NCBI GenBank assembly: GCA_024682255.1
Contig: GCA_024682255.1_4716.1
DNA: 64,000 nucleotides
Strand: one strand, 5' to 3'
From: a phage
The notes below the pieces were generated by a model. That model had not been told where the DNA came from. It did not search any database and saw nothing but the letters and a program-made list of their open reading frames with translations. The translations under genes and the position numbers were made by a program. Below are positions 5,160 to 34,286 of this stretch, piece after piece; position 1 is the first letter of the stretch; every line of letters starts with the position of its first letter.

Positions 5160-5169
5160 TCTTTTACCT

Positions 5170-12850: not shown

Positions 12851-15463
12851 TTAAGCGTCCGGCGTAAAATCAAAAGGAATGTCCGTACGAATGATATCAT
12901 AACGTTTTCCGAGGAAATAGAACTCTTCGGGAACCTGGCCTGGAATGATGCTATCACCGATGAACTGCGGATACGCCCAGATGTACTGGGTGAGTCCTTC
13001 GAACATATCCAGGTTATTTGCGTGGTTGCCCATGATACGTTTCCAGAGTTCGCGTTTATACGGCGTTTTAACATCGAACCCATAAAGCGGTGCGAGGTCT
13101 TCACCAGGAACAAATCCCAGGTAATAGTGGATCTGACTAACTGGGAAACCAAGGGTATCTCGCGGAATGGTGATCGCTTGCTCAGCCTTGGTGACATGCG
13201 TCTCAATAATCCAGTCATAGCACTCTGAATAGAACCGATCGAATTTCTCTGGATTATACCACGCTTTGGGAAGATTGAGTTTCTCCGTGAACGCGTTCGA
13301 CATGATCGTCGGCAAGAACGGAAGAACGCCGGTTTTGATCTGCGTGTATTTCGATTTTACCCGGTTAACGAGATTCCAGCAACTGTATCCTAACTGTTCG
13401 TTACAAAACTCAACATAGAGATCGTAGTCACCACCGGATAACGGGTTGTTAATATCACCGATGTCTGCGGCGTATTTGTTGGGATATCGGTTATTGAAAG
13501 CCAGTTTGGTTTGGTAGTCGTAGATACACGGTTTGTTGTTCGCTGTATTGATCCACCACCAGGGTTCACCTACTTGTACACAAATGTCCTGGACATGAGG
13601 GTAAATGATATCAGCAAACGCGGTTAACACATCCCCTAACCACGTCATCGCCTGTTGGTTACATGGAGACAACAACCAAGACGGTGGCGTATATCCGGTT
13701 GCTGCGATGTTTCCTTCCCAATCCTGCTGCGCCCACTCGAACGGGCATGCGGTACTCATCAATTCGTAACTTAAACTGATGGTGACGGAGAAATGGTGTT
13801 TTGCAGCATATGCGGCGAAAGCTTCATGCCACGCGATACAGGCCGGATTTAATACATCCGTGGTGTTCACCAGTAACTTACCCGCACTTGGCGTCCAGAC
13901 AGTATCGTAGAAATGCGACATCCCAACATAATGCACTAATTCATCTTGATACCCCGCATAAACCAGGTTCTCAAATACGCGCTCCGGCGTGATGTTGTAA
14001 TGGTCATCATAAGCGGTTATCGCACGAAGTTCGTGTGGCGTACAGTGGTGGCGACTAACCGTCATTTCCTGATACACCCCATCGATAGGAAGAATCTCGA
14101 TGGTTAAACCGAGGTCGATTGGCGTTTCCAGATAGGTCGTTTCAGTCGCATCTTCCTTATAATGTCGAGAACTCATGCTGAACATCAACGACGTTACCGA
14201 TTCGAGTTCGATGGGTTCGTCAGCATAGAACCCCGCCATTGCGTCATTGAAATCGATCGTCACGATTGCGCTTCTACCGTCTTCAGAGACATCGGTCGCA
14301 TATCGGGTTAATGAGATATACTGACGGCTATCGTCTTTGTGTACGACGGTTAAAACCGGCGGGTGTTCGGTATCTGCAAAGTTACGCTGATCGCCAGTAA
14401 ACGTGACCTTCGCTTTAAAGATCAAACCGAGTAACGATGTCATGGGATCATACGCAATACATCCGTGATCCAGCGTATCCGTTGTCCGCCATTCTATCCC
14501 GACCAACCCGTTAGCGGTATGACATCGCATATACGCATTAAGTGTCATGTCCTCACTGACAACCGCGAAGTTCTCTGTTGACTGACCGTTGATAATCCAA
14601 TACATCGGTTGCCAGAGGTTACGCGTACCTTTTGCGTAGCGGTAGGTTGGTGCGCCTTTGGGGTTGCCATTATTAAGATGGAATACGGCAGTACCTTGAT
14701 AATGGTCGTTCGTATTAATCGGAACACTGTAAGCATCGCCGAGGTCCGTACGTTCCACCTTCGTGACTGTCGCGTTTTCAAATAACCCACGTAGCGCGGG
14801 TAAACCGATATCTTCCGGCGCGTTTTCTCGACGAATCGCATCCGCGATGCGGTGGGCTAAGGCGGGGTAAATGACCTCACCCTGTTGTAGGTTTGCAAGA
14901 CCTACAAAGCGATCGGGAGCGATACCAGCAATCAATAACTCGACATCACCCTTCGTTCTATCGTCGTTAAGATATTTCAGTCCGGTAAGGTCAAGATGCT
15001 GAATAAGCGACAACAGGTTGTATTTACGGTTTTCAACAGTTAGTACAAGATCGCCCGCCCAAACCAAACTTCCCTCATCCGCTGTTACTTTAACGGATTG
15101 TCGGCCCGTGGTAGACGTTGTTGTCGTTTTATTTAATTGTCCTTGTAGGAAGTCGGTTGCGAGGTCAAAGGCGATACCGTAACGGTCAGCGACCGCTTGC
15201 ATGATTTCACGTAACTGGGTATCTTCTTCAATGATAATCTTGACAGGTATTCCCAAGAACGCTTTAGCGAGGTCTCGTTTAACCAACGAGACGAATACGG
15301 ATTTGTAGTATCGGCTTCCATCTTTCCCTTTAAAAAGAATGGAGGTTGTTTCGGGTGCCGATAGAACACGTGCAAATACAACATCGTCGGAAGTAAGAGA
15401 AAGTCCGTTTTTCTCGTTGACCAATCTTAGTATTTCATTTTGCGCGGTTTCATGTAACTTCAT
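12851..15463 (-). CDS. Large receptor-binding or tailspike-like structural protein (870 aa) with shared N-terminal anchor module
   Basis: N-terminus shares RD(I/L)AKAFLGIPVKI and DRYG(I/F)(A/V)FD motifs with 21250-21777 and 62527-end products; position in tail fibre cluster. Confidence 0.6.
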   Translation of the reverse strand: MKLHETAQNEILRLVNEKNGLSLTSDDVVFARVLSAPETTSILFKGKDGSRYYKSVFVSLVKRDLAKAFLGIPVKIIIEEDTQLREIMQAVADRYGIAFDLATDFLQGQLNKTTTTSTTGRQSVKVTADEGSLVWAGDLVLTVENRKYNLLSLIQHLDLTGLKYLNDDRTKGDVELLIAGIAPDRFVGLANLQQGEVIYPALAHRIADAIRRENAPEDIGLPALRGLFENATVTKVERTDLGDAYSVPINTNDHYQGTAVFHLNNGNPKGAPTYRYAKGTRNLWQPMYWIINGQSTENFAVVSEDMTLNAYMRCHTANGLVGIEWRTTDTLDHGCIAYDPMTSLLGLIFKAKVTFTGDQRNFADTEHPPVLTVVHKDDSRQYISLTRYATDVSEDGRSAIVTIDFNDAMAGFYADEPIELESVTSLMFSMSSRHYKEDATETTYLETPIDLGLTIEILPIDGVYQEMTVSRHHCTPHELRAITAYDDHYNITPERVFENLVYAGYQDELVHYVGMSHFYDTVWTPSAGKLLVNTTDVLNPACIAWHEAFAAYAAKHHFSVTISLSYELMSTACPFEWAQQDWEGNIAATGYTPPSWLLSPCNQQAMTWLGDVLTAFADIIYPHVQDICVQVGEPWWWINTANNKPCIYDYQTKLAFNNRYPNKYAADIGDINNPLSGGDYDLYVEFCNEQLGYSCWNLVNRVKSKYTQIKTGVLPFLPTIMSNAFTEKLNLPKAWYNPEKFDRFYSECYDWIIETHVTKAEQAITIPRDTLGFPVSQIHYYLGFVPGEDLAPLYGFDVKTPYKRELWKRIMGNHANNLDMFEGLTQYIWAYPQFIGDSIIPGQVPEEFYFLGKRYDIIRTDIPFDFTPDA

Positions 15464-15485
15464 TAAAAACCTCAGCCCTTTAGAA

Positions 15486-16127
15486 TTAGATGTACTGCTT
15501 ACCGCCCACGAAGGAAGTTAACCAGTTCCCGCTGACGAGTTGTGATACCCAGCCTGGAACGGCTCTACCATTCTGGCTCATGATGTTACCACACCAACCA
15601 GGGAATCCGGGACGGATGTAATAGAAAGTTAAATTGTAGAGATGACAGTTCCATACCGCAACGTTATGTTTACCAGAAACCGCTTTAAAGACAAACGCGA
15701 CAGGTAACGGAGACGATAACAATTCGGTCACAGGGACAGCTGACCAGTTCGCATTCGCGTTCCATGGTTGCCAGGTATGACTACGCGAGTCGCAATATAC
15801 GTTACCGTTGCTACCGCGTCCGCCCGCGTTCCACCATAGCGACGGACTCATGTTTTTAAGTGAGGTAAATTGCTGTGGTGGTATATTCGGAATGATAACA
15901 GGGTTGGTACCTTGTCCGTGTTTCTTTTCTTTTGTGTTCACATAGCCGTTTATCGATTCGAGGTATTTCGTACCAGGATAATTGTTCTGGACTTGTGTCG
16001 CAATATCACGAACGTCGAACGTCCAGCAGATCATGGTGTTATAGTAAGCGTCGGTGTTATCGTGCCATGAGTTACCATCTTGTAAACGTGCGCCGCTATT
16101 CGGTGTTTTATCTGTACTTATAGCCAT
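15486..16127 (-). CDS. Hypothetical Trp-rich protein (213 aa) in tail fibre cluster
   Basis: ORF immediately upstream of 870-aa gene. Confidence 0.55.
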   Translation of the reverse strand: MAISTDKTPNSGARLQDGNSWHDNTDAYYNTMICWTFDVRDIATQVQNNYPGTKYLESINGYVNTKEKKHGQGTNPVIIPNIPPQQFTSLKNMSPSLWWNAGGRGSNGNVYCDSRSHTWQPWNANANWSAVPVTELLSSPLPVAFVFKAVSGKHNVAVWNCHLYNLTFYYIRPGFPGWCGNIMSQNGRAVPGWVSQLVSGNWLTSFVGGKQYI

Positions 16128-16304
16128 GGTCTTGTCCTATACGTTGGTGGTTGAAGTGGCGGATATCGGATGCATGCTGGACGTGAACCCTATAGTTCGC
16201 GCTATCGCCATTTTCTACCTCGTTTCTATTCTCAAAAAGGAAATTTCATACGATGACGCCATAGCAGCTCCTCCTTCCCTGACGGGTTGGAGGAGCATAC
16301 TTAA

Positions 16305-16811
16305 TTACTTACTGATAACCTCAACGGAGTTGGGATCAGCGATCAATGCACGGTCGGTAGAACAATTGAAGAAGACCATCCCAACACCATCGCCGTTCGA
16401 GTTCAGGGTCGAACTTGCGTAAGACAATGTTGGTTTGTTCATGCGGTAGAAGCGTTCGCTGGTTGCGGTATTGAACCCCAGGTCAACGTAGTCTTTCACC
16501 GTGGTATACAACTGGGTGGACTCGAAAACGGTTACCGGAGAGTCAACGGTAAACTGACTGCCTTCATCCACAACCAGAACTTTATCGTTCCAGATTTCAG
16601 TGGTTGAGAACTTCGGTTTCCAATGTTCGAATTCCTGGGTTGCACCCCAGCAAGAATACACAGCGAGATTGCTGTTCTTCTCAACAGGTTTTAACCCCAC
16701 CAGTTGCGTCAGGTCTTTATCCAGGTTCGGTAAACCTTCCAGCGTAGCACACCCACCCAGAGAAAGCACCATCAACATACCAAGAACGATCGCGCAAAGT
16801 TTCTTTGTCAT
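16305..16811 (-). CDS. Lipoprotein (168 aa); candidate superinfection-exclusion or receptor-masking factor
   Basis: Signal peptide plus lipobox MLMVLSLGGC; located between Tfa and receptor-binding protein genes. Confidence 0.6.
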   Translation of the reverse strand: MTKKLCAIVLGMLMVLSLGGCATLEGLPNLDKDLTQLVGLKPVEKNSNLAVYSCWGATQEFEHWKPKFSTTEIWNDKVLVVDEGSQFTVDSPVTVFESTQLYTTVKDYVDLGFNTATSERFYRMNKPTLSYASSTLNSNGDGVGMVFFNCSTDRALIADPNSVEVISK

Positions 16812-16852
16812 CGGATTTCCTCATGTGTTAACGGGAGTGATTTCCATAGTAA

Positions 16853-17269
16853 TTACACAGTTGTAGGAAATTCCGGCCAATCGATATTTGGTGCAGCATC
16901 GGTATCGACAGCAGTCACCGCATCAGTGTAATCCAAAACAGCATTAAGTCGGGTCGTTTCTTCCGGAGTCAGTTTTCGCCCAGCCCGTAATTTTAACTGA
17001 ATAAGATCGATGGAAGCCAGCGCAGAATCAATCAAAGATTGTTTTATCTGTTCTGCTTCGGCGACGAGATCTTCGTGTTGCCGCTCGGGTTCCGGAGGTG
17101 CGGTAAACTCACCATTTGAGTATGACCAACCTATTCCAGGTGACACAGCCTCCTTATCGTCGATATGAACCAACTGCTGATTGTCGAATATATCGAGCTC
17201 TGCTTCACCATCGTAAACAATCGTGTTTACTACCACTCCATTTTCAATAACAGCGTATAATGTACTCAT
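16853..17269 (-). CDS. tfa: Tail fibre assembly chaperone (Tfa; lambda Tfa / P2 gpG family)
   Basis: C-terminal motif TPEETTRLNAVLDYTDAVTAVDTDAAPNIDWPEFP typical of Tfa; ATG overlaps fibre stop (TAATG). Confidence 0.8.
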   Translation of the reverse strand: MSTLYAVIENGVVVNTIVYDGEAELDIFDNQQLVHIDDKEAVSPGIGWSYSNGEFTAPPEPERQHEDLVAEAEQIKQSLIDSALASIDLIQLKLRAGRKLTPEETTRLNAVLDYTDAVTAVDTDAAPNIDWPEFPTTV

Positions 17270-20200
17270 TACATAAACTCCTCGATGATGCAAATCCCAT
17301 TAGCACCGCGCCCACCAGGCTTAGCGGTTCCTGAGTAAGAGTTATCGTAAGCAGCACCACCACCCGAACCAGGCGCGAGGCCGTTATGGGCGGTGCCGAC
17401 ACCAGCACGGCCGCCACCGCCCCAATATGACGCACCCCCACATCCACCGGCGGCAAGAGTACCGGCTTGTCCATCGCTACCGTCTCCGCCCGGAATGCGT
17501 ATATCCCCGGTAGTAGGTACGCCCCCATAGCCACCGCCAGTGTTTGTGACAGTTGTTTTTCCTGCGCCTTGCCCGCCGGGAGCAGTTAGCAGGGATGCAA
17601 ATTTACTATCTCCACCCCCGTTCCCATTCGTCGCCCCAGAGCCACCGGAACCACCAGAACCAATTATAACAGAATAACTAGCAGCTGCTACCGTTATAAC
17701 CGAAATTACTGTTCCGCCAGCTCCTCCTCCAGCGCCAAAAAACGTTTCGCTGTTGGAATAAGCCTGACAACCGCCACCGCCACCGCCACCACCGGTTATC
17801 GTTACTCTAATCCGTTTTGTTCCTTGTGTTGGGGTGTACGTCCCTGACGATGTGAAAACACGCATATTCAGTAAACGCCCGACATATCCACTAGAATCGG
17901 CTAAACCAAGATCTTTAGCTGCTAACGTGATATTAGCCGTACCGTCGAAAGGTTTACCGTTAATCGTGCGCGCAGTTTGCAGCTTCGTCGCCGTTGCTGC
18001 GTTCCCTGATGTATTCTGGTTCCCCGCGGCGTTAACACCTGGTAGATTGATGTTCGCACTACCGTCGAACGCGACACCACCGATCGTCCTTGCTGTTTGC
18101 AGTTTTGTCGCCGTGGCGGCATTACCGGTCGTGTCTTGGTTACCGGTGGTGTTTACCCCAGGCAGGTTGATATTTGCCGTTCCGTTAAATGAGACACCAC
18201 CAATCGTCCTTGCCGTTTGCAACCTCGTTGCGGATGCCGCATTCCCCGTGGTGTTTTGGTTACCTGTTGCATTCACACCTGGGATACTATCCTTAGATGT
18301 GTAGATCTGTGCCCATTCCGACCAGTTCGCATCGGTTGAATCACGACGTGAACGTAAATAAGCTGGAGCGTGTGCACCTGAGGTACCTGACCACCCAATG
18401 AGGATTTCGCCTTCGCCGACCGATGAAGCACCTTTAAGATGAACAATGTTGCCGTAGGCTGTAGGGTATCCGTTATTGTACGCTTCATACATCTGGATAC
18501 CCGTGTTGCTGCCCTGGGTCGCATTAGCTAAAGCGGTGACCCGTCCTTTGGAAGCGAGCACGTTAATGCTAAAGCTAATATCGGTTGTACCGTCAAAGGC
18601 GACCCCGTTAATCTTCCGTGCTGTTTGGAGTTTCGTGGCAGTAGCCGCATTACCAGAGGTACTCTGATTACCTGCTTTGTTCACACCCGGTAAATCAATG
18701 TTGGCTGTTCCATCAAAGGACACGCCCCCTATGGTTCTCGCTGTCTGGAGTTTTGTTGCTGAACCAGCGTTTCCGGAAGTGCTTTGATTACCTGCCGCGT
18801 TGACACCTGGTAGGTTAATGCTAGCAGAGCCATCAAAAGAAACTCCGCCGATCGTGATCGGTGTTTTCAATTTCGTGGCTGTCGCGGCGTTACCCGTCGT
18901 ATTCTGATTGCCAGCCGCATTAACGCCTGGTAATGCGATATCGGTCGTACCATCGAACGCAACACCACCGATTTTACGGGCGGTCTGTAGCTTGGTCGCT
19001 GTAGCCGCGTTGCCGCTGGTATTTTGCGTGCCCGCTTCATTTACGCCTGGTAAATCAATGTTCGCAGTACCATCAAAAGAAACACCCCCGATGGTTCTCG
19101 CGGTCTGCAACTTCGTTGCACTTCCTGCGTTTCCGCTGGTGCTTTGATTTCCCGCTGCATTAACACCTGGTAGACTGATGCTGGCTGAACCATCGAAACT
19201 CACACCACCGATCGTAACAGCGGTTTTCAATTTCGTGGCGGTTGCTGCGTTACCGGTTGTATTTTGGTTGCCTGTCGCATTCACGCCAGGTAATGCAATA
19301 TCCGCTGTTCCGTCAAAGGCAACGCCACCGATTTTACGTGCAGTTTGTAGCTTGGTTGCACTAGCAGCGTTACCGCTGGTATTCTGGGTGCCTGCTTTGT
19401 TAACACCGGGGAGATCGATGTTAGCAGAACCATCGAAGCTGACGCCACCTATCGTTCTTGCGGTAGCGAGTTTAGCTGCTGTGGCTGCATTATTACCCAC
19501 TTTCAGCCAATCATCCCATGGACCATCCTGGCCGTTCCATGATGCCGTTAAACTACGTACGTAAATATTGCCGGTACGTACAGTGTAACGTTGCGTTCCA
19601 CCGAATTGCCCGGTTGGGAGCACTTCAATGTAACCTGCGGCGTTTGCTTCAGGGAAATTGTGGGCGATGTCCGCGTTCGTTGTTACTGGTTTAGACCAAA
19701 TACCAACAGACGCTTCGACTGGGCCGAAGGTATTCAGATTTGCGTCTATCGCCATAGCGCCATTAAATTTCAGGTATGTCTCTGGCGATAATCCGATCGT
19801 TTTAGCAAACGCAGCTTTATCTACGATATCACTACCGTTATTCCCTGCTTGCAACGCCGTCTTAGCTGCCTTTATGGTTTCGGTCAATCCAAGATATTGT
19901 AAGATCGCATCAACGCTTCCTTTGTTTAGCAGATTCAGACCTGTTGACGTTACGTTAGTTAGTCCGATTTGGTTCCGTCCAGTAAAATAAGGGAGTTTAT
20001 TCGCTTCTGTTGTTAGGTTAGACCACGCAGTCAACAACGCGTTCAAAGGCTGTTTACCCGCCAACGCATTGGTTACTGTCGTTGCGAAATTAGGATCGTT
20101 CCCTAAAGCTTGAGCCAGCTCATTAAGCGTATTTAGCGCTTCTGGAGACGAGTCGATCAGCGATGCGATAGCGCGCATCACAAATTCCGTGTTGGCAATC

Positions 20201-21243
20201 TGTCGACTGCTATCGTTCTCTGCAGCCGTAGGCGCTGCCGGGATACCGGTGAACACGGGGCTATTAAGATCTGCCTTGAGCGCGATGAGACGTTTAAGTG
20301 CGTCGACATCGACTTTCAGGTTTTCCCACCCGATGAGAGAACCACCACTGCTGGCATGATAACGGTTATACCAGAAGTCACCGTTAATGCCTAAAAAGAA
20401 TATTCCCTTCTCTTCGTTTTGTGGGCCAGAACTGTTCCGTGACGAGCTGATGTAATTGATTTCAATAAGACCGGTAAACGTCACTCCTGGAATTATTTTA
20501 TTGTCTCCAGCTGACTGTGATACCTGGTAAATCCCCGGGGTTGCGGCTTTAACCCATGTTAAGAATTCTGTTACTCCAGCGGTGCCGCTAAAATTCTTAA
20601 CGTCGGTAAGTATTGCCCCATAACCGAACATACCGGGTAGAGCCACTCGTCCGCTGGTACGGTCACGAATATCTGTTACAACAACGGGCAATTGTTTACG
20701 AACGGCATTAACCGCTTTAGGCGTGGCCGATTTTGTCTCGTCGTCGCTATCGGTTGCATTACTTAGAATAGTTAAACCGCGTGTAGCAGTAGTTGCATCA
20801 GGAAGAAATGCGTTATCCAACACCTTAAGCTGTACTGCACTCGTATTACTAACAACGACATGCACTTGACAGTTAAGAACGCTGGTTGCGCCTTCGGCAG
20901 GCGTAGGCTTATATCTTTCTGGTGCACTGCAGACGGCAATCAGAACACCTTGATCATCATACAGACCGATCTCACGTACCCAGAACCCACCTTGACCAGC
21001 AGGAATAATACCCTCAACGATAATCCTGGTTGTGCTATCACCATCCGCATGGATATTAGAAACTTCCCCACGATAAACTTCGTGGACAAGCGCTGTTTGG
21101 CTGGCGGACGGGGTTGGGATCGAGCCGTTACCATCACCAACGGCAAAGTGTGTGATTTTTAGTTTCTCACCGTCGGGAAGTAACGCAGCGGTGATACGTT
21201 CTGCTCCTTTATCGGTAACTACCGTTATATATGCTGTACTCAT
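17269..21243 (-). CDS. Long tail fibre protein (1324 aa), P2 gpH / lambda Stf-like N-terminal domain, 40-aa tandem repeats, Gly-rich C-terminal domain
   Basis: N-terminal motifs AVGDGNG, GGFWVREIGLYDD, ETKSATPKAV, ALNTLNELAQALGNDPNFATT as in P2 gpH; about 11 repeats of ATKLQTARTIGGVSFDG..LPGVN.GNQNTSGNA; poly-Gly run at residues 1151-1158. Confidence 0.85.
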   Translation of the reverse strand: MSTAYITVVTDKGAERITAALLPDGEKLKITHFAVGDGNGSIPTPSASQTALVHEVYRGEVSNIHADGDSTTRIIVEGIIPAGQGGFWVREIGLYDDQGVLIAVCSAPERYKPTPAEGATSVLNCQVHVVVSNTSAVQLKVLDNAFLPDATTATRGLTILSNATDSDDETKSATPKAVNAVRKQLPVVVTDIRDRTSGRVALPGMFGYGAILTDVKNFSGTAGVTEFLTWVKAATPGIYQVSQSAGDNKIIPGVTFTGLIEINYISSSRNSSGPQNEEKGIFFLGINGDFWYNRYHASSGGSLIGWENLKVDVDALKRLIALKADLNSPVFTGIPAAPTAAENDSSRQIANTEFVMRAIASLIDSSPEALNTLNELAQALGNDPNFATTVTNALAGKQPLNALLTAWSNLTTEANKLPYFTGRNQIGLTNVTSTGLNLLNKGSVDAILQYLGLTETIKAAKTALQAGNNGSDIVDKAAFAKTIGLSPETYLKFNGAMAIDANLNTFGPVEASVGIWSKPVTTNADIAHNFPEANAAGYIEVLPTGQFGGTQRYTVRTGNIYVRSLTASWNGQDGPWDDWLKVGNNAATAAKLATARTIGGVSFDGSANIDLPGVNKAGTQNTSGNAASATKLQTARKIGGVAFDGTADIALPGVNATGNQNTTGNAATATKLKTAVTIGGVSFDGSASISLPGVNAAGNQSTSGNAGSATKLQTARTIGGVSFDGTANIDLPGVNEAGTQNTSGNAATATKLQTARKIGGVAFDGTTDIALPGVNAAGNQNTTGNAATATKLKTPITIGGVSFDGSASINLPGVNAAGNQSTSGNAGSATKLQTARTIGGVSFDGTANIDLPGVNKAGNQSTSGNAATATKLQTARKINGVAFDGTTDISFSINVLASKGRVTALANATQGSNTGIQMYEAYNNGYPTAYGNIVHLKGASSVGEGEILIGWSGTSGAHAPAYLRSRRDSTDANWSEWAQIYTSKDSIPGVNATGNQNTTGNAASATRLQTARTIGGVSFNGTANINLPGVNTTGNQDTTGNAATATKLQTARTIGGVAFDGSANINLPGVNAAGNQNTSGNAATATKLQTARTINGKPFDGTANITLAAKDLGLADSSGYVGRLLNMRVFTSSGTYTPTQGTKRIRVTITGGGGGGGGCQAYSNSETFFGAGGGAGGTVISVITVAAASYSVIIGSGGSGGSGATNGNGGGDSKFASLLTAPGGQGAGKTTVTNTGGGYGGVPTTGDIRIPGGDGSDGQAGTLAAGGCGGASYWGGGGRAGVGTAHNGLAPGSGGGAAYDNSYSGTAKPGGRGANGICIIEEFM
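17929..18291 (-). repeat. Coding tandem repeat block 2 (three 120-bp units) within tail fibre gene
   Basis: Three 40-aa repeat units at protein residues about 985-1105. Confidence 0.75.
18574..19491 (-). repeat. Coding tandem repeat block 1 (about 7.5 units of 120 bp, in 360-bp higher-order units) within tail fibre gene
   Basis: Residues about 585-890; units recur with period 40 aa and superperiod 120 aa. Confidence 0.8.
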
Positions 21244-21249
21244 GGTGTT

Positions 21250-21777
21250 TTATCCTGGATAAATAGTGATGATATCACCAATGACGGTTGTGGCACCGGC
21301 GTAAAGATGAGCCGGAGATACATCGTGTTGGTTTGTCACAGTAAGATCCAATCGACCACGCCAAACCATGGAGGTATTCGCGATGGGGATAGAAATCTTT
21401 TTGGATATATCGTCACGAAAATCAATAACAGTGGCAAGGGTAACCGCATCAAAATCAACGTCGGGGTCAAAGACGAACCCGTATCGATCTGAAATAGCTC
21501 GAATAATCGCATGTATAGTTGTTGTCTCAACAGACTCTAAAACGATTTTTACCGGTATGCCTAAAAATGCCTTCGCGATATCGCGTCGGGCGTAAACGAT
21601 AAAGCATTCACCGCACCACTTTGTTCCTTCATTTGCTGTGACGATCACTTTTGCCCTGTTAGCACCAGAACTCCCATCCAAGGTTAATGTAAGATCGGAG
21701 CTGCTGAACACGCTACCGTTACGTTGGTTTATCAACGTAATCAGTTCGTCTTTCCATGGCGGGTAAAGTGAACGCAT
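21250..21777 (-). CDS. Small protein (about 176 aa) consisting of the shared N-terminal anchor module only
   Basis: Start at ATG 21777 with GGAGGAGG RBS; motifs WKDELITLINQRNG, RRDIAKAFLGIPVKI, SDRYGFVFD shared with 870-aa and 62527-end proteins. Confidence 0.65.
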   Translation of the reverse strand: MRSLYPPWKDELITLINQRNGSVFSSSDLTLTLDGSSGANRAKVIVTANEGTKWCGECFIVYARRDIAKAFLGIPVKIVLESVETTTIHAIIRAISDRYGFVFDPDVDFDAVTLATVIDFRDDISKKISIPIANTSMVWRGRLDLTVTNQHDVSPAHLYAGATTVIGDIITIYPG

Positions 21778-21890
21778 AAGCGCACCCTCCTCCAACAATC
21801 AAATTAAAATATATAACTCCTCGAAACCAGAGTGCGATTCGAGGTAAGCGTAAACAGTCCAGACGACCGCATAAAATTCCGCGCATATTG

Positions 21891-21922
21891 CCCCTCTATC
21901 TCGACAAAGCGAGATAGAGGGG
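21891..21922 (-). terminator. Long hairpin (13-bp stem) downstream of the 1198-aa gene
   Basis: CCCCTCTATCTCG-ACAAAG-CGAGATAGAGGGG; two further hairpins at 21816-21842 and 21960-21977. Confidence 0.5.
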
Positions 21923-21982
21923 AGGATAATACGATTATGCTGCCGCACTCCAAAGTTCATGGGGCGGTAACCGCCCCATCGG

Positions 21983-24900
21983 TTAAATGGTTGGTTTTAC
22001 ATCACGTAATAAGGCAATATAATAGCCTAATCCTCGGAGGATCTCCCCACTCCAGAAACCAAAATACATTCCGTCTCTGCCGAGATTAGCGCTATCTGGT
22101 GCAGGACTCCACCCACCATTCATTACGTCGTCAACAGTGTAATGGTTGATGTAGTTCTCAACGATTTCGTTATAAGCATTAACCGCAACAGAATAGCCTT
22201 TATCGTTGGGATGTCCGTACAACATTGCTAACGACGCACCCGCCAACCATAATCCCGCCATGTGACCAGTAAAGTCATTAGGGATAAAAGCAGGGGGTTT
22301 ATCCATCGGAAAATCCGTAGGGGATTGATAAGCGTTTTCCTGTTGATACGTAAACAAGAAATCGATCCAATGACTGATGTAAGTGGTTAATTTCTCAGGG
22401 ACAGCCAAACCATGATCAAGCAGCCCAGCATAAAGCCTCACCGCTGAGAAGAAAGCCCTCGGCTGATAACCGGACCATGCCGTCTGATCGCCGAAGTGGT
22501 ACATCGTAAAATCGTTAACTTTTGATCCGCTTGGCGCATCCCAACGATCCCACACGTACGCACTTGCCCCTGGCCCTAAAACCCCGAATTTCTGATAATA
22601 CCACTGTTGTGAGTCATACCAGAAATTCACAACGTTCTGAATCATGAGGTCACGTCGTTCAGTCGGTACTTCCATATCCAGGAAGACCCATGGATGTTGG
22701 TAGCCGGGATAAGGCTGACCACGCCAACTGTCGAACGTCGGTGCGTTAGGGATATAGTTGTTCGAGAACGGAATAATACCCGGAGTATAAGGCAACGGAT
22801 CGAGACGTTGGTTAACGATCGTGCAATCACCAACACGTAATGTTCCCTCTGCCTCAAAGGTTGCTTTTAACGTAAACAACATGGTATATCCGTCATCCGT
22901 GGTGTATGTTGACGGTGGATTGTTGATGGCGTAAAGCTTAAATACCCCTTCAGCGATATCGCTGTCGTCAGGCAAGAACAGAATTTCAGTTGAGCCATCG
23001 CCCCACACAGGTGCAGAAGGTCTAGGGTCAGTATCAGTGTGGTTCGGTTGATACCCTGAGAGCGTCCATCCGTTCGTCGAAAGCGTCAGCGTATTTCTTG
23101 CTGTGGTAGCCGGTAGCATCTGCCACCATCGCCAACCATTTGCATCTTCTACACGAACGTTGTAGTCAATCGACGCGAAATAACTGACCTGCCTTACGAT
23201 CTGTTTTGCGGTTGGATTGAATTCAAATTGCCCGCCTGCTGCAGTAAGCTGTGCTTTTAGGAACAACCCATCCCAGGAATCTTCCACTGCTTCGCTGAAT
23301 TCTGTTGTGATGGCGACATCATCTTTCCAGCCGACTTTATCAGCCGATACCAACACAGAACCTGTAACAGCATCACCGGTTGGTGTTGATGCTTCATCAA
23401 CCGCATCAGCAGGAATCAACGAGCCTATTTTGAAATCCCATCCTTTCGGTTCAGCGCTGGAAGGTAATACCAGTTTGTACGTTTTGGCGTTCGCTTCGGT
23501 TTTGTCCAAAGAAAGCGATAATGAGATCTCAACCGGAATTGCGACACCGGCTGTATCTTTACCTCCGCAGGTTACACGAAGAATTGAATCCCGATTTACG
23601 CGGAACGGAATGGCCTGCTGCTCAAGGTAAATTTGTGCTGAAGATGCTTGAATCACGATCCAGCCATCGGTATCACGCGTGATTGTAAATGGTGCTTTCG
23701 ATGGGTATGTATACGTGTAAGCGATACCGTCGGTGTCGTAACGATCGGTTCCTTTTACCTGACGGAAGAACTTATCGTTGGCGTCGATACGGGTATATTC
23801 TTCAATCGTAAACAACGATGCCTTGTACGCTTTCTGATAGCGCTCCTGCTGCGTTAAACGATATAAGGTGTAGGCTGCTTCACAAAACCACTGTTCGGCG
23901 TCTGATGCGTTTCCCATGTAGTCTCTGGTGACCGGCACCTGGATCGGTCGGTTATGCTGACATTCGTTTGTTTTGATGAGGTATCCACCATATTCAACAG
24001 GAACGCGGGGTGCCCATGCAACCAAGTAAGAACCGCTGACGGATTTATCTTTGAGTACGATGGTACCTACTTCATCGTCGGTACACGCTTCAAGATCGTC
24101 TCCGTCAGCACTTACGTAACGTTTTGTGCGTAACGCAACTTTCTCGATAGGGAACACCGTACCCTTTGTATCCCAGTCAATTGTCCCATCATCATTGGTT
24201 TTGAACACATCCGCGTTCAAATTCTGCCAGCCGAGTTTACCCTCATAGACCTGAACAACAAGATCCATGTATTCCCCGAACGTGGGCGCGCCATGTGTTA
24301 TTTTTCCGATACCGTTGGTGAATGTAACCGCTGTGTCATGGAAACCGCCATGTGTTGGGTAATCGTCTTTTGCAAGAGGATAATGGGCCAACACAGGTTG
24401 TTTACCATTAACAATCCAGTTAGCGATCCAGCGTGCTGGTGTATCCGGTGGTTCAAGGCCTGCATAGAACGCATTTATATACGCATCGAACGATGCCTCC
24501 GCTAATGTGAGATAATGCGCTTTAAGCTTGGTATCATCCGTTGTATGACTGAATATACCCGCACCCAGAATTAACAACGACTGTCCTTCTGTTGTTGCGT
24601 CACCGTCCGGTTGTGCTTCTTGTCGTGTTGCTGCAATGAAATGACGGTTGTTTACCATGACTCCGCTTTCATTTAACACGTAATGATCGGTTTCTGGATC
24701 GGTAAACGTTCCTGTGTTTCGGGTTAAGAATCTTGCATGACCATAACCAACGAAATTAACCGGCGACGCCGTAAGCACCCATTTACCGATAAGTTGAGCG
24801 ACGTCATTATAACGCTCCGATGCGGTGATTTGTTTCACGTACCAATCTTTACGGTTAAATGTCCAGAGCAAGAAGTAATAGGTCGTATTGATTTCCATTA

Positions 24901-25579
24901 CCGGAAACGTTGGTGTTAACGGCTCCAGCGTTAAGTAGTTGCTCCAATCAATCTGTCCACCAACAACCGATGAGGTAATCTCTAATAACTGACACCATTC
25001 ATAACGGTTCGGTACACTACTGGACGTTGTTGGTAAAGGTAACTTGTATACGCCAGTACGATTCAGATCGAACGCTTTTCTAGCCGATCCTAAATCAACA
25101 TAAATACTCGATGATGCGCTTGCATCAGATGCCTCCAAAGCACCTAGCGTTGACCGATACATTGAGATGAACAACGTATCTTTCCAGTAAGGGTTATCCT
25201 CGGTTGGTTCTAAAGCGATTTGTGCGGAGATGCTGTTCCATGTCCCTAACTGGTATGCTGCATTTAAAGATTCTTCCGTGAAATAACTTTCCGCAATCGC
25301 CAGATGGAACTGTTCATTCAATAACGCGAGTGCACTGCGACCGGTAACATCCTCATTACCGGTTTCTTTTTTCATGATCGCGCCGAACGGAAACAGTGTC
25401 GCGAATGACCGTTTTGGTTTATTAACCGTAATCGTCCCCGTGTAGTTTCCAACACCGTCAAGTTTTTGACTATCGCCAACAGCAGTGACTGCGATACCAT
25501 CAGCCGGGATATCTGTTTTATTTAGTACATTGAGTTGGTCAACCAGATCCTGCTTATCGTCGGGTAAGAATGTCGCCAT
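21983..25579 (-). CDS. Large structural protein (1198 aa), putative tailspike or fibre with Trp-rich C-terminal domain
   Basis: Longest ORF in tail fibre cluster; C-terminal 330 aa rich in W/Y/G; enzymatic assignment unverified. Confidence 0.65.
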   Translation of the reverse strand: MATFLPDDKQDLVDQLNVLNKTDIPADGIAVTAVGDSQKLDGVGNYTGTITVNKPKRSFATLFPFGAIMKKETGNEDVTGRSALALLNEQFHLAIAESYFTEESLNAAYQLGTWNSISAQIALEPTEDNPYWKDTLFISMYRSTLGALEASDASASSSIYVDLGSARKAFDLNRTGVYKLPLPTTSSSVPNRYEWCQLLEITSSVVGGQIDWSNYLTLEPLTPTFPVMEINTTYYFLLWTFNRKDWYVKQITASERYNDVAQLIGKWVLTASPVNFVGYGHARFLTRNTGTFTDPETDHYVLNESGVMVNNRHFIAATRQEAQPDGDATTEGQSLLILGAGIFSHTTDDTKLKAHYLTLAEASFDAYINAFYAGLEPPDTPARWIANWIVNGKQPVLAHYPLAKDDYPTHGGFHDTAVTFTNGIGKITHGAPTFGEYMDLVVQVYEGKLGWQNLNADVFKTNDDGTIDWDTKGTVFPIEKVALRTKRYVSADGDDLEACTDDEVGTIVLKDKSVSGSYLVAWAPRVPVEYGGYLIKTNECQHNRPIQVPVTRDYMGNASDAEQWFCEAAYTLYRLTQQERYQKAYKASLFTIEEYTRIDANDKFFRQVKGTDRYDTDGIAYTYTYPSKAPFTITRDTDGWIVIQASSAQIYLEQQAIPFRVNRDSILRVTCGGKDTAGVAIPVEISLSLSLDKTEANAKTYKLVLPSSAEPKGWDFKIGSLIPADAVDEASTPTGDAVTGSVLVSADKVGWKDDVAITTEFSEAVEDSWDGLFLKAQLTAAGGQFEFNPTAKQIVRQVSYFASIDYNVRVEDANGWRWWQMLPATTARNTLTLSTNGWTLSGYQPNHTDTDPRPSAPVWGDGSTEILFLPDDSDIAEGVFKLYAINNPPSTYTTDDGYTMLFTLKATFEAEGTLRVGDCTIVNQRLDPLPYTPGIIPFSNNYIPNAPTFDSWRGQPYPGYQHPWVFLDMEVPTERRDLMIQNVVNFWYDSQQWYYQKFGVLGPGASAYVWDRWDAPSGSKVNDFTMYHFGDQTAWSGYQPRAFFSAVRLYAGLLDHGLAVPEKLTTYISHWIDFLFTYQQENAYQSPTDFPMDKPPAFIPNDFTGHMAGLWLAGASLAMLYGHPNDKGYSVAVNAYNEIVENYINHYTVDDVMNGGWSPAPDSANLGRDGMYFGFWSGEILRGLGYYIALLRDVKPTI

Positions 25580-25592
25580 TATTTACTCCACC

Positions 25593-26423
25593 TTAATCGT
25601 AACTAAAATAAAGTTTGCTGCTGACGCCGCTATCGGAATGAGGTTTTAATACCAGAACAGAACTTCCGAACGACGGAAGTATTGGAACATTTAAATCGTT
25701 TGCGTCGGCAACTTTTCCATTATAAACGACACTGGCTGTTGTGATGAGTTCCCAAGCCGAGGCATAACTCATTGAAATCAGCGATGAGGCTAAACGGAAT
25801 GCGTTGTATCCTTCTGGAGTATCTCCAACTGACATCGAACGTATCGCATCTTGCGGCGGTAAATTTAGCTTGATGCCGTAGGTACTGAATGTGTGGAAAT
25901 CCCCTTGTTTACTATCTTCTGGATAGTACGAGGTTAGTGGTTCTCGCACCGTAAACAGTTCGCTAATATCGGTACTTACCGCTTTTCGTGCGAGGAATTG
26001 AAACGTACCGTACCACGATGCTGATGCATCAGAACGAACGGGAACAGATATGGTTTTCTCGCCGCTTTCAAATTTAACCTGTGATGCTAACGCTGAAGAA
26101 TCAAAGATCGTTAAATCGATCTTCAGCCCATACTTCTTAAACAGCTGCGTTAAGCAATCTGCTATCGTCGTCTTATCAGCAACGACAATAAAAGGTTGGT
26201 GTTTGATAAAGAGCTTATTAATGTCACGACGTTGAAGATAAACCTGTACGGGGTCTTCGATATAGTAAGTCGATTGTGGTGTGGGGACTATAGAAAGGCG
26301 TAACCGACCTGATGCACCATACCAGGCTGGCGTTAACGTAATGTCTGACAGGGATAACGGATGCTGGAGATAGGTGTTTATTTTAGATAACACTTCCTCC
26401 TGCCATGATGCTTCAGGATACAT
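25593..26423 (-). CDS. Hypothetical structural protein (276 aa), weakly related to the shared N-terminal module
   Basis: Contains RRDINKLF and FKKYGLKID resembling RRDIAK / DRYGxxFD motifs. Confidence 0.55.
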   Translation of the reverse strand: MYPEASWQEEVLSKINTYLQHPLSLSDITLTPAWYGASGRLRLSIVPTPQSTYYIEDPVQVYLQRRDINKLFIKHQPFIVVADKTTIADCLTQLFKKYGLKIDLTIFDSSALASQVKFESGEKTISVPVRSDASASWYGTFQFLARKAVSTDISELFTVREPLTSYYPEDSKQGDFHTFSTYGIKLNLPPQDAIRSMSVGDTPEGYNAFRLASSLISMSYASAWELITTASVVYNGKVADANDLNVPILPSFGSSVLVLKPHSDSGVSSKLYFSYD

Positions 26424-33609: not shown

Positions 33610-33686
33610 GGTTACTGTCCTATTGCATTGTGTTTAGATAAGGAGGATTTACCCGGTATTAAAAAGTTATTTGGTGTGTAATGTTT

Positions 33687-34286
33687 TTACTTAGGTTCCA
33701 GTATTGGTCCGAACAACCAGAATGTCAGGCGCTGGTAAACCTGTTCGATGACTGCGGCTTCTGTTTGTTCTTCTAGTGCTTTCCCTTTCTTATGTTGTAT
33801 TTCTGGCGGGATGTCGCCGTTGTAAACATACCCTGTTGAGAAGTCCCACGCCAACCGTTTACCGAAAGTGGGTAAGAACACCTCTTCGAATCGGAACGCT
33901 TTCGAATTCCAATGAAGCAGCTGATCGGATTCAACATGTAAAGCTTTATTACGTTTGCTTGGCATGTTTCCGAAGTACTGAACGATAGCTGATTTCATAA
34001 CCTGATCTGCGAAGTCTTTAGCTTCGGCCTCATCGAGGGGAGGCAGACGATGTGATAGATTCAGCTTGCGTTGTTCAACATCAATCTTACGCATCGCTTT
34101 AATCAAATCACCAGGAACGATTTTACCCTTATGGCCTTCCTGTCGGTGTACGAAACACCCCTGGAATAACACGCAAAGTTCTTGAGGCGCGCTGCTTTCC
34201 ATTCGTCCGTAAGCAACGATCACCGATCGACGACGATCGATAACTTCGCGGATAAACCGCGGCTCAGTAATACTCACCACTGTCAT
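33687..34286 (-). CDS. Hypothetical protein (199 aa)
   Basis: ORF in minus operon. Confidence 0.6.
   Translation of the reverse strand: MTVVSITEPRFIREVIDRRRSVIVAYGRMESSAPQELCVLFQGCFVHRQEGHKGKIVPGDLIKAMRKIDVEQRKLNLSHRLPPLDEAEAKDFADQVMKSAIVQYFGNMPSKRNKALHVESDQLLHWNSKAFRFEEVFLPTFGKRLAWDFSTGYVYNGDIPPEIQHKKGKALEEQTEAAVIEQVYQRLTFWLFGPILEPK

What the first reader, a model, noticed from the sequence alone, without database searches (positions are those of the whole stretch)
12851..26423. Multi-receptor-binding-protein module built on a shared N-terminal anchor domain
The 870-aa protein, the 176-aa protein just upstream of the tail fibre, and the partial protein at 62527-64000 share an N-terminal module of about 110 aa (L..LVN.KNG, RRDIAKxFxGIPVKI, DRYGxxFD); the 276-aa protein is weakly related. 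C-terminal parts differ completely, and the 176-aa protein is the module alone. This suggests several interchangeable host-recognition proteins docked through a common adaptor, with one copy 36 kb away.
Basis: seen in the sequence. Interest (0 to 1): 0.55.

Follow-up and report, generated by a model that had tools for sequence, protein, structure and literature searches.

The report
Jumbo-phage fibre proteins sharing one anchor

Summary
The window is a close relative of Escherichia phage Goslar (93.6% nt identity). The 870-, 176-, 276-aa proteins and the protein at 62527-63999 are Goslar gp86, gp91, gp93 and gp161. All four pass Pfam's threshold for DUF7941.

The shared part is about 150-185 aa, not 110. 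It is a globular N-terminal domain plus a linker motif. In gp86 and gp93 the homology runs to about residue 276.

An AlphaFold model of the module matches one solved structure only: phiKZ gp127, in the outer peripheral baseplate (PDB 9XQD).

The C-terminal parts look like host-recognition domains: the TIM barrel of the phage N4 receptor-binding sheath (gp86), carbohydrate-binding sandwiches plus a glycosidase-like barrel (gp92), and a BspA-type LRR (gp161).

Basu et al. (bioRxiv 2026) already reported this family in Goslar, found the proteins by virion mass spectrometry, and proposed head-to-tail DUF7941 filaments.

New here:
- a sharp N/C identity break in gp161;
- paralogue recombination at the RRDIAKAF motif;
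- cassette loss and gain in relatives;
- natural tandem-module and Gp38-adhesin fusions.

Verdict: real, interesting biology, already known.

The parts
12851..15463 (-). 870-aa protein (Goslar gp86 orthologue, 98% aa identity). Full DUF7941 at aa 2-277 (nt 14633-15460), then NCTSP_N at aa 284-442 (nt 14138-14614), then TIM-barrel_NCTSP at aa 476-837 (nt 12953-14038).
   Evidence: Pfam. Identity to Goslar. PDB sequence hits to N4 Gp64 (E=2.5e-29) and the N4 non-contractile sheath gp65. The C-terminal part is shared at about 40% identity with rV5/phi92-like phages.
14909..15463 (-). Shared module of the 870-aa protein (aa 1-185). Motifs: LRLVNEKNG aa 12-20, RDLAKAFLGIPVKI aa 63-76, DRYGIAFD aa 93-100, linker motif LLSLIQHLDLTGLKY aa 150-164.
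   Evidence: Alignments; coordinates.
15486..16127 (-). 213-aa protein (Goslar gp87 orthologue). No module and no family match.
16305..16811 (-). 168-aa protein with a lipoprotein-like signal peptide (Goslar gp88 orthologue). It lies next to the fibre genes and is not a DUF7941 protein.
   Evidence: Conserved after the fibre gene in L006 and L007. About 737 copies in the Goslar virion mass spectrometry.
16853..17269 (-). Tail fibre assembly protein (Caudo_TAP; Goslar gp89 orthologue).
   Evidence: Pfam; annotation.
17269..21243 (-). 1324-aa P1 S/P2 H-type tail fibre (Phage_tail_fib N-terminus, fibre repeat, Gly_rich_2 tip; Goslar gp90 orthologue, 88% identity). It lacks the DUF7941 module.
21250..21777 (-). 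175-aa protein consisting of the module alone (Goslar gp91 orthologue): N-terminal domain plus a short disordered tail. It ends 6 nt upstream of the fibre gene.
   Evidence: Pfam. AlphaFold2 model with pLDDT 85.7; residues 157-175 are disordered. Foldseek hit to 9xqd_0.
21983..25579 (-). 1198-aa protein (Goslar gp92 orthologue, 96% identity). Diverged DUF7941 N-terminal domain at aa 2-143 (nt 25151-25576). At aa 279-1190 (nt 22010-24745) it carries a widespread phage 'tail protein' module: carbohydrate-binding-like beta-sandwiches plus an (alpha/alpha)6 glycosidase-like barrel.
   Evidence: hhalign; hmmsearch. phrog_2871 at E=5e-298. tblastn finds 526 phage records. Orthologues P0206 and P0208 carry a Pfam-detectable DUF7941 on the same C-terminal module. 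AlphaFold2 and Foldseek.
25593..26423 (-). 276-aa protein (Goslar gp93 orthologue): full-length DUF7941 only (N-terminal domain, linker motif ISELFTVREPLTSYY at aa 153-167, C-terminal globular domain).
   Evidence: Pfam aa 45-275. A6 profile E=5e-66. Coordinates.
62527..63999 (+). 491-aa protein (Goslar gp161 orthologue), complete up to its stop codon. Module at aa 1-185 (nt 62527-63081), a variable middle part, and a DUF285/BspA-type LRR at aa 389-465 (nt 63691-63921).
   Evidence: Pfam; hhalign 99.8%. Identity to Goslar is 95-100% in aa 1-185 and 64-65% in aa 186-491.

Best explanation
These are five members of the DUF7941 family of virion proteins of Chimalliviridae (phiKZ-like, nucleus-forming jumbo phages), in a close relative of E. 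coli phage Goslar.

The N-terminal globular domain (about 150 aa) is the common assembly element. In phiKZ one family member, gp127, caps the gp139 spoke at the outer edge of the baseplate. The linker (and C-terminal domain) of one DUF7941 protein is thought to dock onto the N-terminal domain of the next. The proteins would then co-polymerise head-to-tail into flexible, baseplate-anchored filaments.

The members in this window fall into two groups.
- gp91 and gp93 are module-only subunits that could act as spacers or adaptors.
- gp86, gp92 and gp161 carry host-surface-directed C-terminal domains: an N4 gp64/gp65-type TIM barrel, CBM-like sandwiches plus a glycosidase-like barrel, and a BspA LRR.

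Because the module is conserved among paralogues, it also serves as a substrate for homologous recombination through which C-terminal cargo is swapped, lost or duplicated between related phages.

Shown here or in the cited work: homology, the fold match to baseplate protein gp127, virion detection of the Goslar orthologues, mosaicism, and filament formation by Goslar gp22 in vitro.

Inferred: that these five proteins join such filaments, and that their C-termini bind or cut host surface glycans. Also inferred is that gp92 acts as a distal chain end. It has an N-terminal domain but no recognisable linker motif, and is present at about 5 copies per virion.
For: Family membership:
- Pfam DUF7941 is above threshold for four proteins.
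- The fifth copy is detected by hhalign and hmmsearch.
- The proteins are 95-98% identical to Goslar gp86/91/92/93 and 77% identical to gp161.

Location:
- A family profile hits PDB 9xqd chain 0 (PHIKZ127) at E=2e-9.
- In phiKZ the band of gp139 dimers 'terminates at gp127' (PMC13250141).
- DUF7941 genes cluster with the spoke gene family DUF7208. In Goslar, gp31, gp33 and gp34 flank gp32. L010 has ten consecutive DUF7941 genes next to a DUF7208 gene.

Virion presence (Goslar mass spectrometry, bioRxiv 10.64898/2026.04.21.720040, Table S4), in estimated copies per virion:
- gp161 about 111
- gp92 about 4.9
- gp93 about 4.8
- gp86 about 4.5
- gp91 about 1.2

Polymer model:
- Goslar gp22 forms filaments in vitro and AlphaFold predicts head-to-tail docking.
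- Independent support found here comes from natural proteins with 2-3 modules in tandem at a period of about 170 aa: P0074, P0075, P0103, P0121, P0188.
- The module lies at residues 1-12 in 43 of 44 long single-module proteins.

Host-recognition cargo:
- The gp86 C-terminus is homologous to phage N4 gp64/gp65, the N4 receptor-binding sheath.
- The gp92 C-terminus shows CBM11/CBM22-like and GH105/GH116-like folds.
- The gp86 and gp92 C-terminal modules are shared with tail-fibre clusters of rV5/phi92-like phages.
- Across the family the C-terminal partners include DUF285/LRR (13 of 51 long representatives), T-even Gp38 adhesin (2) and Laminin_G_3.

Exchange:
- gp161 is 95-100% identical to Goslar in the module and 64-65% beyond it.
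- A 176-aa chimera has its crossover in the RRDIAKAF-GIP motif.
- Split, truncated, deleted and fused variants occur in relatives.
Against: - No map shows any of these five proteins, or their Goslar orthologues, on the virion. The Goslar peripheral baseplate is unresolved.
- The virion preparation also contained chimallin and PhuZ, so large co-purifying assemblies are not excluded.
- gp91 is at about 1 copy per virion, similar to non-structural proteins.
- Head-to-tail assembly rests on AlphaFold predictions plus negative-stain images of one paralogue, gp22, which is outside this window.
- The phiKZ gp127 model is a docked AlphaFold backbone in a 4.4-4.7 A map.
- No receptor, glycan substrate or enzymatic activity is known for any of the C-terminal domains. 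Foldseek TM-scores for gp92 are low because only single domains match.
- The gp92 module is below Pfam's threshold.
Confidence: 0.7

Rival explanations
1. Simple shared-anchor docking. Each protein binds on its own, through the N-terminal domain, to one kind of baseplate site, for example the end of the gp32/gp139 spoke. The proteins act as alternative or parallel receptor-binding proteins and do not polymerise.
For: gp86, gp92 and gp93 are each estimated at about 5 copies per virion, close to the six-fold symmetry of the baseplate. In phiKZ one gp127 N-terminal domain per star lobe contacts the last gp139 dimer.
Against: Total DUF7941 protein is put at more than 2500 copies per virion, with gp161 at about 111. 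That cannot fit 6-12 sites. gp22 forms long filaments in vitro. Tandem-module natural fusions at a period of about 170 aa suggest that modules sit next to each other. The module-only proteins gp91 and gp93 would have no purpose.
Confidence: 0.15
2. The DUF7941 proteins are not stable virion parts. They form filaments in the infected cell or the lysate that co-purify with virions. Examples would be scaffolds of the virion 'bouquets', decoys, or debris binders. The shared domain is then a self-assembly domain unrelated to baseplate docking.
For: The Goslar preparation contained chimallin and PhuZ filaments. No DUF7941 density was seen in the Goslar maps. gp22 self-assembles without virions. gp91 is at the level of non-structural proteins.
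Against: phiKZ gp127 is modelled in baseplate density. DUF7941 genes lie in tail/baseplate gene clusters next to the spoke gene. PHROG families 1037 and 2935 are annotated 'virion structural protein'. The C-terminal partners are typical receptor-binding domains, including Gp38 adhesin.
Confidence: 0.08
3. Plain paralogy. The N-terminal similarity is only a remnant of gene duplication and domain shuffling and has no common docking function. Each protein is attached or used differently, for example gp91 as a fibre-specific assembly factor.
For: gp91 always lies 6 nt upstream of the fibre gene and is almost absent from virions. The gp92 module is highly diverged.
Against: The module keeps its position at the extreme N-terminus in 43 of 44 long single-module representatives. 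The same motifs are kept over 395 clusters at 50% identity. In gp161 the module is 95-100% conserved while the rest of the protein diverges to 64%. That pattern indicates a constrained interaction domain.
Confidence: 0.05

Closest known systems
Goslar DUF7941 protein family (gp22, gp23, gp31, gp33, gp34, gp86, gp91, gp92, gp93, gp161), Basu et al., bioRxiv 10.64898/2026.04.21.720040 (2026)
   Same: The five window proteins are the orthologues of gp86, gp91, gp92, gp93 (95-98% aa identity) and gp161 (77%). They have the same domain architecture and gene order. The preprint already reports the shared module, the carbohydrate-binding, glycoside-hydrolase and LRR cargo, virion mass spectrometry and a filament model.
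   Different: This is a different strain: 93.6% nt identity, gp108 and gp120 absent, and a diverged gp161 C-terminus and fibre repeats. Not in the preprint: the N/C identity break, paralogue recombination, cassette variation in relatives, tandem-module and Gp38 fusions, and the Mollicutes link, which qualifies its 'exclusively chimallivirus' statement.
phiKZ gp127 (PDB 9XQD chain 0), outer peripheral baseplate; Structural atlas of phiKZ, PMC13250141
   Same: It has the same fold and family as the module (profile E=2e-9, Foldseek E=3e-7, TM about 0.6). It gives the only experimental location for the domain, at the end of the gp139 spoke.
   Different: Sequence identity is only about 13%. gp127 is a 290-aa module-only protein with no cargo domain. 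Its model is a docked prediction at 4.4-4.7 A.
phiKZ gp131-gp135 paralogous fibre proteins
   Same: The design principle is the same: paralogues with similar N-termini that assemble at a baseplate attachment site and have different C-termini, such as the gp131 seven-bladed propeller.
   Different: The N-terminal domain is different. It forms a six-helix-bundle hetero-hexamer under gp130 and is not DUF7941. The module model gave no other significant PDB match.
Branched multi-receptor-binding-protein systems of smaller phages (CBA120 TSP1-4, G7C gp63.1/gp66, phi92/rV5-like 'Swiss-army-knife' fibres); recalled from the literature, not read here
   Same: Several receptor-binding proteins with different specificities are mounted on one virion through conserved N-terminal attachment domains. 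The gp86 and gp92 C-terminal modules are homologous (about 40%) to adjacent tail-fibre-cluster genes of rV5/phi92-like phages.
   Different: Those systems use T4 gp10-like or other trimeric adaptor domains at fixed stoichiometry. The DUF7941 domain has no detectable fold similarity to them and is proposed to polymerise.
Phage N4 non-contractile sheath gp65/gp64 (PDB 9LC0, 9YF4; PMC13434306)
   Same: The gp86 C-terminal TIM barrel (Pfam 284 bits) and NCTSP_N domain are homologous to N4 gp64 (E=2.5e-29) and gp65. gp65 is the N4 receptor-binding protein for NfrA.
   Different: The match to gp65 covers only short stretches of its N-terminal third, up to residue 440 of 1382. gp86 therefore shows no counterpart of the gp65 domains D9-D10 that bind the tail plug. 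Here the N4-type domains are cargo on a DUF7941 module in a contractile-tailed jumbo phage.

Membership tests
Pfam DUF7941 (PF25613) | Whole-protein score at or above the gathering score of 27 bits | tested here: met
   870 aa: 149.6 bits. 176 aa: 58.0. 276 aa: 38.3. The 62527 protein: 91.0.
Pfam DUF7941 (PF25613), applied to the 1198-aa protein (gp92) | Whole-protein score at or above the gathering score of 27 bits | tested here: not met
   16.4 bits, E=0.0065, aa 45-142. Homology is nevertheless supported by hhalign at 93.9-94.7%, by hmmsearch at E about 1e-5, and by orthologues P0206 and P0208, which carry a Pfam-positive DUF7941 on the same C-terminal module.
Chimallivirus baseplate-associated DUF7941 filament proteins (Basu et al. 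2026) | N-terminal domain with the fold of phiKZ gp127 | tested here: met
   The AlphaFold2 model of the 175-aa protein matches 9xqd_0 at E=3e-7, probability 1.00, TM 0.56/0.64, and this is the only significant PDB hit. Tested for one member only.
Chimallivirus baseplate-associated DUF7941 filament proteins (Basu et al. 2026) | Encoded by a chimallivirus (phiKZ-like jumbo phage) | tested here: met
   The window is 93.6% identical to Goslar over the interval and colinear with Goslar over the whole 64 kb. tblastn and BFVD hits for the module are all 210-305 kb phiKZ-like phages.
Chimallivirus baseplate-associated DUF7941 filament proteins (Basu et al. 2026) | Present in purified virions | not testable with these tools
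   Literature only, for the Goslar orthologues. Estimated copies per virion: gp161 about 111, gp92 about 4.9, gp93 about 4.8, gp86 about 4.5, gp91 about 1.2. The preparation also held non-virion assemblies.
Chimallivirus baseplate-associated DUF7941 filament proteins (Basu et al. 2026) | Head-to-tail oligomerisation through linker-to-N-terminal-domain docking | tested here: inconclusive
   No multimer prediction was available. Indirect support comes from tandem-module natural proteins at a period of about 170 aa. A conserved linker motif L..I....L.GL.Y is present in the 870-aa, 276-aa and 62527 proteins. It is not recognisable in the 175-aa protein or in gp92. The tail of the monomer model is disordered.
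Chimallivirus baseplate-associated DUF7941 filament proteins (Basu et al. 2026) | Physical attachment to the gp32/gp139 (DUF7208) spoke | not testable with these tools
   Seen only for phiKZ gp127. Gene neighbourhood of DUF7941 and DUF7208 in Goslar, L010 and L012 is consistent with it.
N4-type non-contractile tail sheath / receptor-binding protein (gp65/gp64) | NCTSP_N and TIM-barrel_NCTSP domains | tested here: met
   Pfam gives 41.8 and 284.4 bits. The PDB hit to 9lc0_M (Gp64) has E=2.5e-29.
N4-type non-contractile tail sheath / receptor-binding protein (gp65/gp64) | Sheath-forming and plug-binding domains (gp65 D8-D10), and a podovirus tail context | tested here: not met
   The matches to gp65 are short stretches within its first 440 of 1382 residues (gp86 aa 281-350 and 483-541). 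The host phage is a contractile-tailed jumbo phage. gp86 shares a domain with the N4 proteins but is not a sheath protein.
Trimeric tailspike/fibre systems with T4 gp10-like or similar N-terminal adaptor domains (CBA120, G7C type) | Adaptor domain fold related to T4 gp10 or the XD domains | tested here: not met
   Foldseek of the module against the PDB gives no significant hit other than phiKZ gp127. The resemblance is functional analogy only.

The most novel reading that the evidence does not exclude
The DUF7941 N-terminal domain has two roles at once.

First, it is the repeating joint of a modular co-polymer. Abundant cargo-less subunits build the chain. Cargo-bearing subunits are inserted along it (gp161, about 100 copies) or cap it. 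gp92 has an N-terminal domain but no donor linker motif and is present at about 6 copies per virion, which would fit one per filament.

Second, it is the recombination handle through which host-recognition cargo is exchanged between paralogues and between phages. That would make host range evolvable by cassette swapping at the RRDIAKAF motif.

A further possibility concerns the first ~60 residues of the module. They recur as repeats in Mollicutes LRR surface proteins and overlap Pfam's Spiralin domain. The DUF7941+LRR architecture may therefore share ancestry with bacterial adhesins.
Probability: 0.3. Interest if true: 0.55.

Novelty: already known. Interest (0 to 1): 0.3.

Why it matters
How nucleus-forming jumbo phages find their hosts is still open. 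The peripheral baseplate and fibres of both phiKZ and Goslar are largely unmodelled.

A family of modular proteins that share one assembly domain and carry interchangeable glycan-binding, enzyme-like and LRR domains is the leading candidate for that function. It is also an obvious target for engineering the host range of therapeutic jumbo phages.

The finding itself repeats what a 2026 preprint reported for Goslar. This analysis adds comparative evidence that the module/cargo boundary is a real evolutionary seam. The module is 95-100% conserved against 64% for the cargo. Recombinants have their crossover inside the conserved motif. Natural tandem-module proteins fit the proposed polymer.

Tried and rejected
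- A 4-sequence HMM of the N-termini found only the four known copies and missed gp92. Broader profiles were needed.
- PDB sequence searches with the 62527 protein alone and with the 4-sequence profile found nothing. Only a 43-sequence profile reached phiKZ gp127.
- A PDB sequence search with full-length gp92 found nothing.
- The word-index search with the gp92 N-terminus returned only 3 proteins, too few for a profile.
- The first literature search for 'non-contractile tail sheath' returned irrelevant papers. The N4 link came from the PDB entry codes and a second search.
- The phiKZ transposon-mutagenesis preprint says nothing about the DUF7941 genes gp126, gp127 or gp143.
- I did not fold the gp92 N-terminus with a DUF7941 alignment. 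The alignment would impose the fold, so the test would be circular.
- gp91 as a stoichiometric fibre adaptor was considered because it lies 6 nt upstream of gp90. Its roughly 1 copy per virion against about 43 for gp90 argues against this.
- No tRNA genes are present in the window.

Full report
OBSERVATION.

The interval holds ten genes on the minus strand. Translation and pairwise BLASTP confirm the reported similarity.
- 870-aa protein (12851-15463) vs the protein at 62527-63999: 40% identity over 182 aa, E=1e-39.
- 176-aa protein vs the 62527 protein: E=6e-31.
- 870 vs 176: E=3e-23.
- The 276-aa protein is more distant: E=2e-16, 1.5e-12 and 1e-3 against the other three.

All four exceed Pfam's gathering score for DUF7941 (PF25613). 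The similarity is therefore real. It covers about 150 aa of globular domain plus a linker (about 185 aa), not about 110 aa. In the 870- and 276-aa proteins the Pfam match continues to profile position about 275, so their C-terminal parts are not entirely different.

A FIFTH COPY.

The 1198-aa protein between the 276- and 176-aa genes gave no Pfam hit at first and only 16 bits for its N-terminus. Profile methods do detect it.
- hhalign of its first 240-300 residues against two independent DUF7941 alignments gives 93.9% (E=1.6e-7) and 94.7% (E=6e-8) over residues 2-143.
- Family HMMs run against all 481 window ORFs pick exactly five ORFs, this one at E about 1e-5.
- Orthologues on other jumbo-phage contigs (P0206, P0208) carry a Pfam-positive DUF7941 on the same C-terminal module.

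WHAT THE WINDOW IS.

The interval is 93.6% identical to Escherichia phage vB_EcoM_Goslar. The whole window is colinear with Goslar at about 95-96% identity. The proteins are orthologues of Goslar proteins:

| Window protein | Goslar orthologue | aa identity |
|---|---|---|
| 870 aa | gp86 | 98% |
| 213 aa | gp87 | 97% |
| 168 aa | gp88 | 99% |
| tail fibre assembly protein | gp89 | 93% |
| 1324-aa tail fibre | gp90 | 88% |
| 175 aa | gp91 | 97.7% |
| 1198 aa | gp92 | 96% |
| 276 aa | gp93 | 95% |
| 491 aa (62527-63999) | gp161 | 77% |

The 'partial' protein is complete. It ends ...HFTE like gp161, and base 64000 starts the stop codon.

PRIOR DESCRIPTION.

A bioRxiv preprint of April 2026 (10.64898/2026.04.21.720040) reports the cryo-EM structure and virion mass spectrometry of Goslar.
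- It names ten DUF7941 proteins: gp22, gp23, gp31, gp33, gp34, gp86, gp91, gp92, gp93, gp161.
- It notes carbohydrate-binding, glycoside-hydrolase and LRR domains on gp86, gp92 and gp161.
- It shows that gp22 forms filaments.
- It proposes a baseplate-anchored 'DUF7941 fibre cloud' built by head-to-tail docking.

Its Table S4 gives estimated copies per virion:

| Protein | Copies per virion (approx.) |
|---|---|
| gp23 | 2144 |
| gp22 | 577 |
| gp161 | 111 |
| gp90 | 43 |
| gp92 | 4.9 |
| gp93 | 4.8 |
| gp86 | 4.5 |
| gp91 | 1.2 |

The caveat is that the preparation also contained chimallin and PhuZ.

INDEPENDENT STRUCTURAL CHECK.

A 43-sequence alignment of module-only family members hits PDB 9xqd chain 0, PHIKZ127, at E=2e-9. 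An AlphaFold2 model of the window's 175-aa protein has pLDDT 85.7 and pTM 0.78, with residues 157-175 disordered. Its single significant PDB match is the same chain, titled 'outer peripheral region in the phage phiKZ baseplate complex' (E=3e-7, TM 0.56/0.64). In that structure the band of five gp139 dimers that crosses the baseplate 'terminates at gp127' (PMC13250141). In BFVD the fold has 74 matches at E<=1e-3, and every named one is a phiKZ-like jumbo phage. tblastn of the module against 50,697 phage records hits only 210-305 kb jumbo phages.

C-TERMINAL CARGO.

gp86:
- Pfam NCTSP_N and TIM-barrel_NCTSP.
- PDB sequence hits to N4 Gp64 (E=2.5e-29) and to the N4 non-contractile sheath gp65. 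gp65 is the N4 receptor-binding protein for NfrA (PMC13434306).

gp92 (residues 279-1190):
- Matches phrog_2871 'tail protein' at E=5e-298.
- Found in 526 phage records.
- Its AlphaFold2 model (pLDDT 85.2) matches CBM11/CBM22-type beta-sandwiches and GH105/GH116/GH48-type (alpha/alpha)6 barrels, domain by domain.

The gp86 and gp92 C-terminal modules occur at about 40% identity as adjacent genes in the tail-fibre clusters of rV5/phi92-like coliphages. gp161 carries a DUF285/BspA LRR.

FAMILY-WIDE VIEW.

An exhaustive profile search found 395 cluster representatives at E<=1e-3. Among 51 long ones:
- The module starts at residues 1-12 in 43 of 44 single-module proteins.
- The partners include DUF285/LRR_5 (13), T-even adhesin Gp38 (2), Laminin_G_3, weak DUF5122 propeller hits, and the NCTSP TIM barrel.
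- Several proteins carry 2-3 complete modules in tandem at a period of about 170 aa: P0074, P0075, P0103, P0121, P0188. This Rosetta-stone pattern would be expected if modules normally sit head-to-tail.

In a 278-kb contig, ten DUF7941 genes lie in a row next to a DUF7208 gene. DUF7208 is the gp32/gp139 spoke family.

EVIDENCE FOR EXCHANGE.

1. Against Goslar, gp161 is 95-100% identical in residues 1-185 and 64-65% in residues 186-491. Nucleotide identity dips to about 82% only there and in the fibre repeats, against a 95-96% background.
2. In relatives, the 176-aa gene is a chimera. Its first ~76 residues are 82-92% identical to another paralogue (a 392-aa gp161-like protein). The rest is 92-100% identical to gp91 in one relative (L005) and 68-88% in another (L006). 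The crossover lies in the RRDIAKAF-GIP motif.
3. Other variants are found in relatives:
   - gp161 is split into a 276-aa DUF7941 protein and a 193-aa LRR protein.
   - gp93 and gp92 are absent, together with a different (Peptidase_S74) fibre.
   - gp92 is reduced to its last 456 residues; gp91 and the fibre are deleted; gp86 has an internal 134-aa deletion.
   - The gp92 C-terminus is fused to an LRR (P0207).

The locus is a mosaic hot spot, and the module boundary is an evolutionary seam.

MECHANISM.

Best explanation (confidence about 0.7): these proteins are baseplate-associated DUF7941 virion proteins. The N-terminal domain incorporates them into a spoke-anchored assembly, most likely head-to-tail filaments, and the variable C-termini engage host surface structures.

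Shown: homology, the fold match to a baseplate protein, virion detection of orthologues, filament formation by a paralogue, and mosaicism.

Inferred:
- these five members are incorporated into such filaments;
- their C-termini bind or cleave glycans;
- gp92 is a chain end, because it has an N-terminal domain, no recognisable linker motif, and about 5 copies per virion.

Rivals:
- Individual docking to one baseplate site. It fits the ~5 copies but not the more than 2500 total copies or the tandem fusions.
- Co-purifying non-virion filaments.
- Paralogy with no common function.

COMPARISON AND NOVELTY.

The finding is the same system as in the Goslar preprint, seen in a sister strain, so it is already known. 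It is analogous, not homologous, to branched multi-RBP systems and to the phiKZ gp131-135 paralogues.

One qualification of the literature: DUF7941 is not strictly chimallivirus-specific.
- A Spiroplasma genome paper reports it in secreted Spaid-like proteins (PMC13375240).
- A Mycoplasmataceae LRR protein carries six repeats of the first ~60 residues of the module.
- Pfam's Spiralin domain overlaps that sub-domain in one family member.

SCORES.

Interest is 0.3: real and biologically attractive, but already published for the type phage, and the additions here are incremental.

Noticed in passing
window 16305-16811 (-): The 168-aa protein after the tail fibre and its assembly protein has a lipoprotein-like signal peptide (MTKKLCAIVLGMLMVLSLGGC...). 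It is kept in the same position in relatives L006 and L007. Its Goslar orthologue gp88 is estimated at about 737 copies in 'virion' mass spectrometry. It could be a T5 Llp-like receptor-masking lipoprotein, or a membrane-vesicle contaminant.
   Followed up: partly
P0095, P0085, P0183; PMC13375240: The first ~60 residues of the DUF7941 module recur as 4-6 repeats in a Mycoplasmataceae LRR surface protein. They overlap Pfam's Spiralin domain in one family member. A 2026 paper reports DUF7941 in Spiroplasma Spaid-like secreted proteins. The claim that the domain is exclusive to chimalliviruses is therefore too strong.
   Followed up: partly
L010 1555-14614 (JGI 3300045450, 278-kb contig); L011 is the same: Ten consecutive DUF7941 genes follow a DUF7208 (spoke family) gene: 715, 276, 276, 301, 274, 300, 274 and 301 aa, then a 1537-aa protein with three modules plus a Gp38 adhesin domain. 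This is a far larger expansion of the family than in Goslar.
   Followed up: partly
L004 6001-7452 (Logan SRR6504847): In a Goslar relative the gp161 gene is split into a 276-aa DUF7941 protein and a separate 193-aa DUF285 LRR protein 40 nt downstream. Two clusters (P0001, P0003) share the same 276-aa end, so it is not a one-off sequencing error.
   Followed up: partly
L007 4913-12026 (Logan ERR5917301): This relative appears to lack the long tail fibre altogether. A 124-aa ORF joins the first 52 residues of gp91 to the last 71 residues of an S74-type fibre. gp92 survives only as its last 456 residues, and gp86 has an internal 134-aa deletion. It may be a deletion variant or an assembly artefact.
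   Followed up: partly
window 17900-19500 (-), inside the tail fibre gene: The central part of the fibre gene is internally repetitive, with many off-diagonal blastn matches at 66-76%. It is the most diverged stretch relative to Goslar, at about 82% nt identity against 95-96% elsewhere.
   Followed up: no
window 4667-5170, 33641-33687, 39427, 52931-53646: Differences from Goslar outside the finding: an insertion of about 465 nt with a 151-aa ORF (4704-5159), absence of Goslar gp108 and gp120, and a replaced segment of about 700 nt near the 3'-5' exoribonuclease gene.
   Followed up: no
P0238, P0207, P0232: The gp92-type C-terminal module occurs in other fusions elsewhere: with the NCTSP TIM barrel in one 1557-aa protein, with a DUF285 LRR (P0207, 95% identical to gp92), and with a Gly_rich_2 fibre tip. 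These cargo domains are shuffled widely among phages.
   Followed up: no
window 1-64000: No tRNA or tmRNA genes are present in the window.
   Followed up: yes
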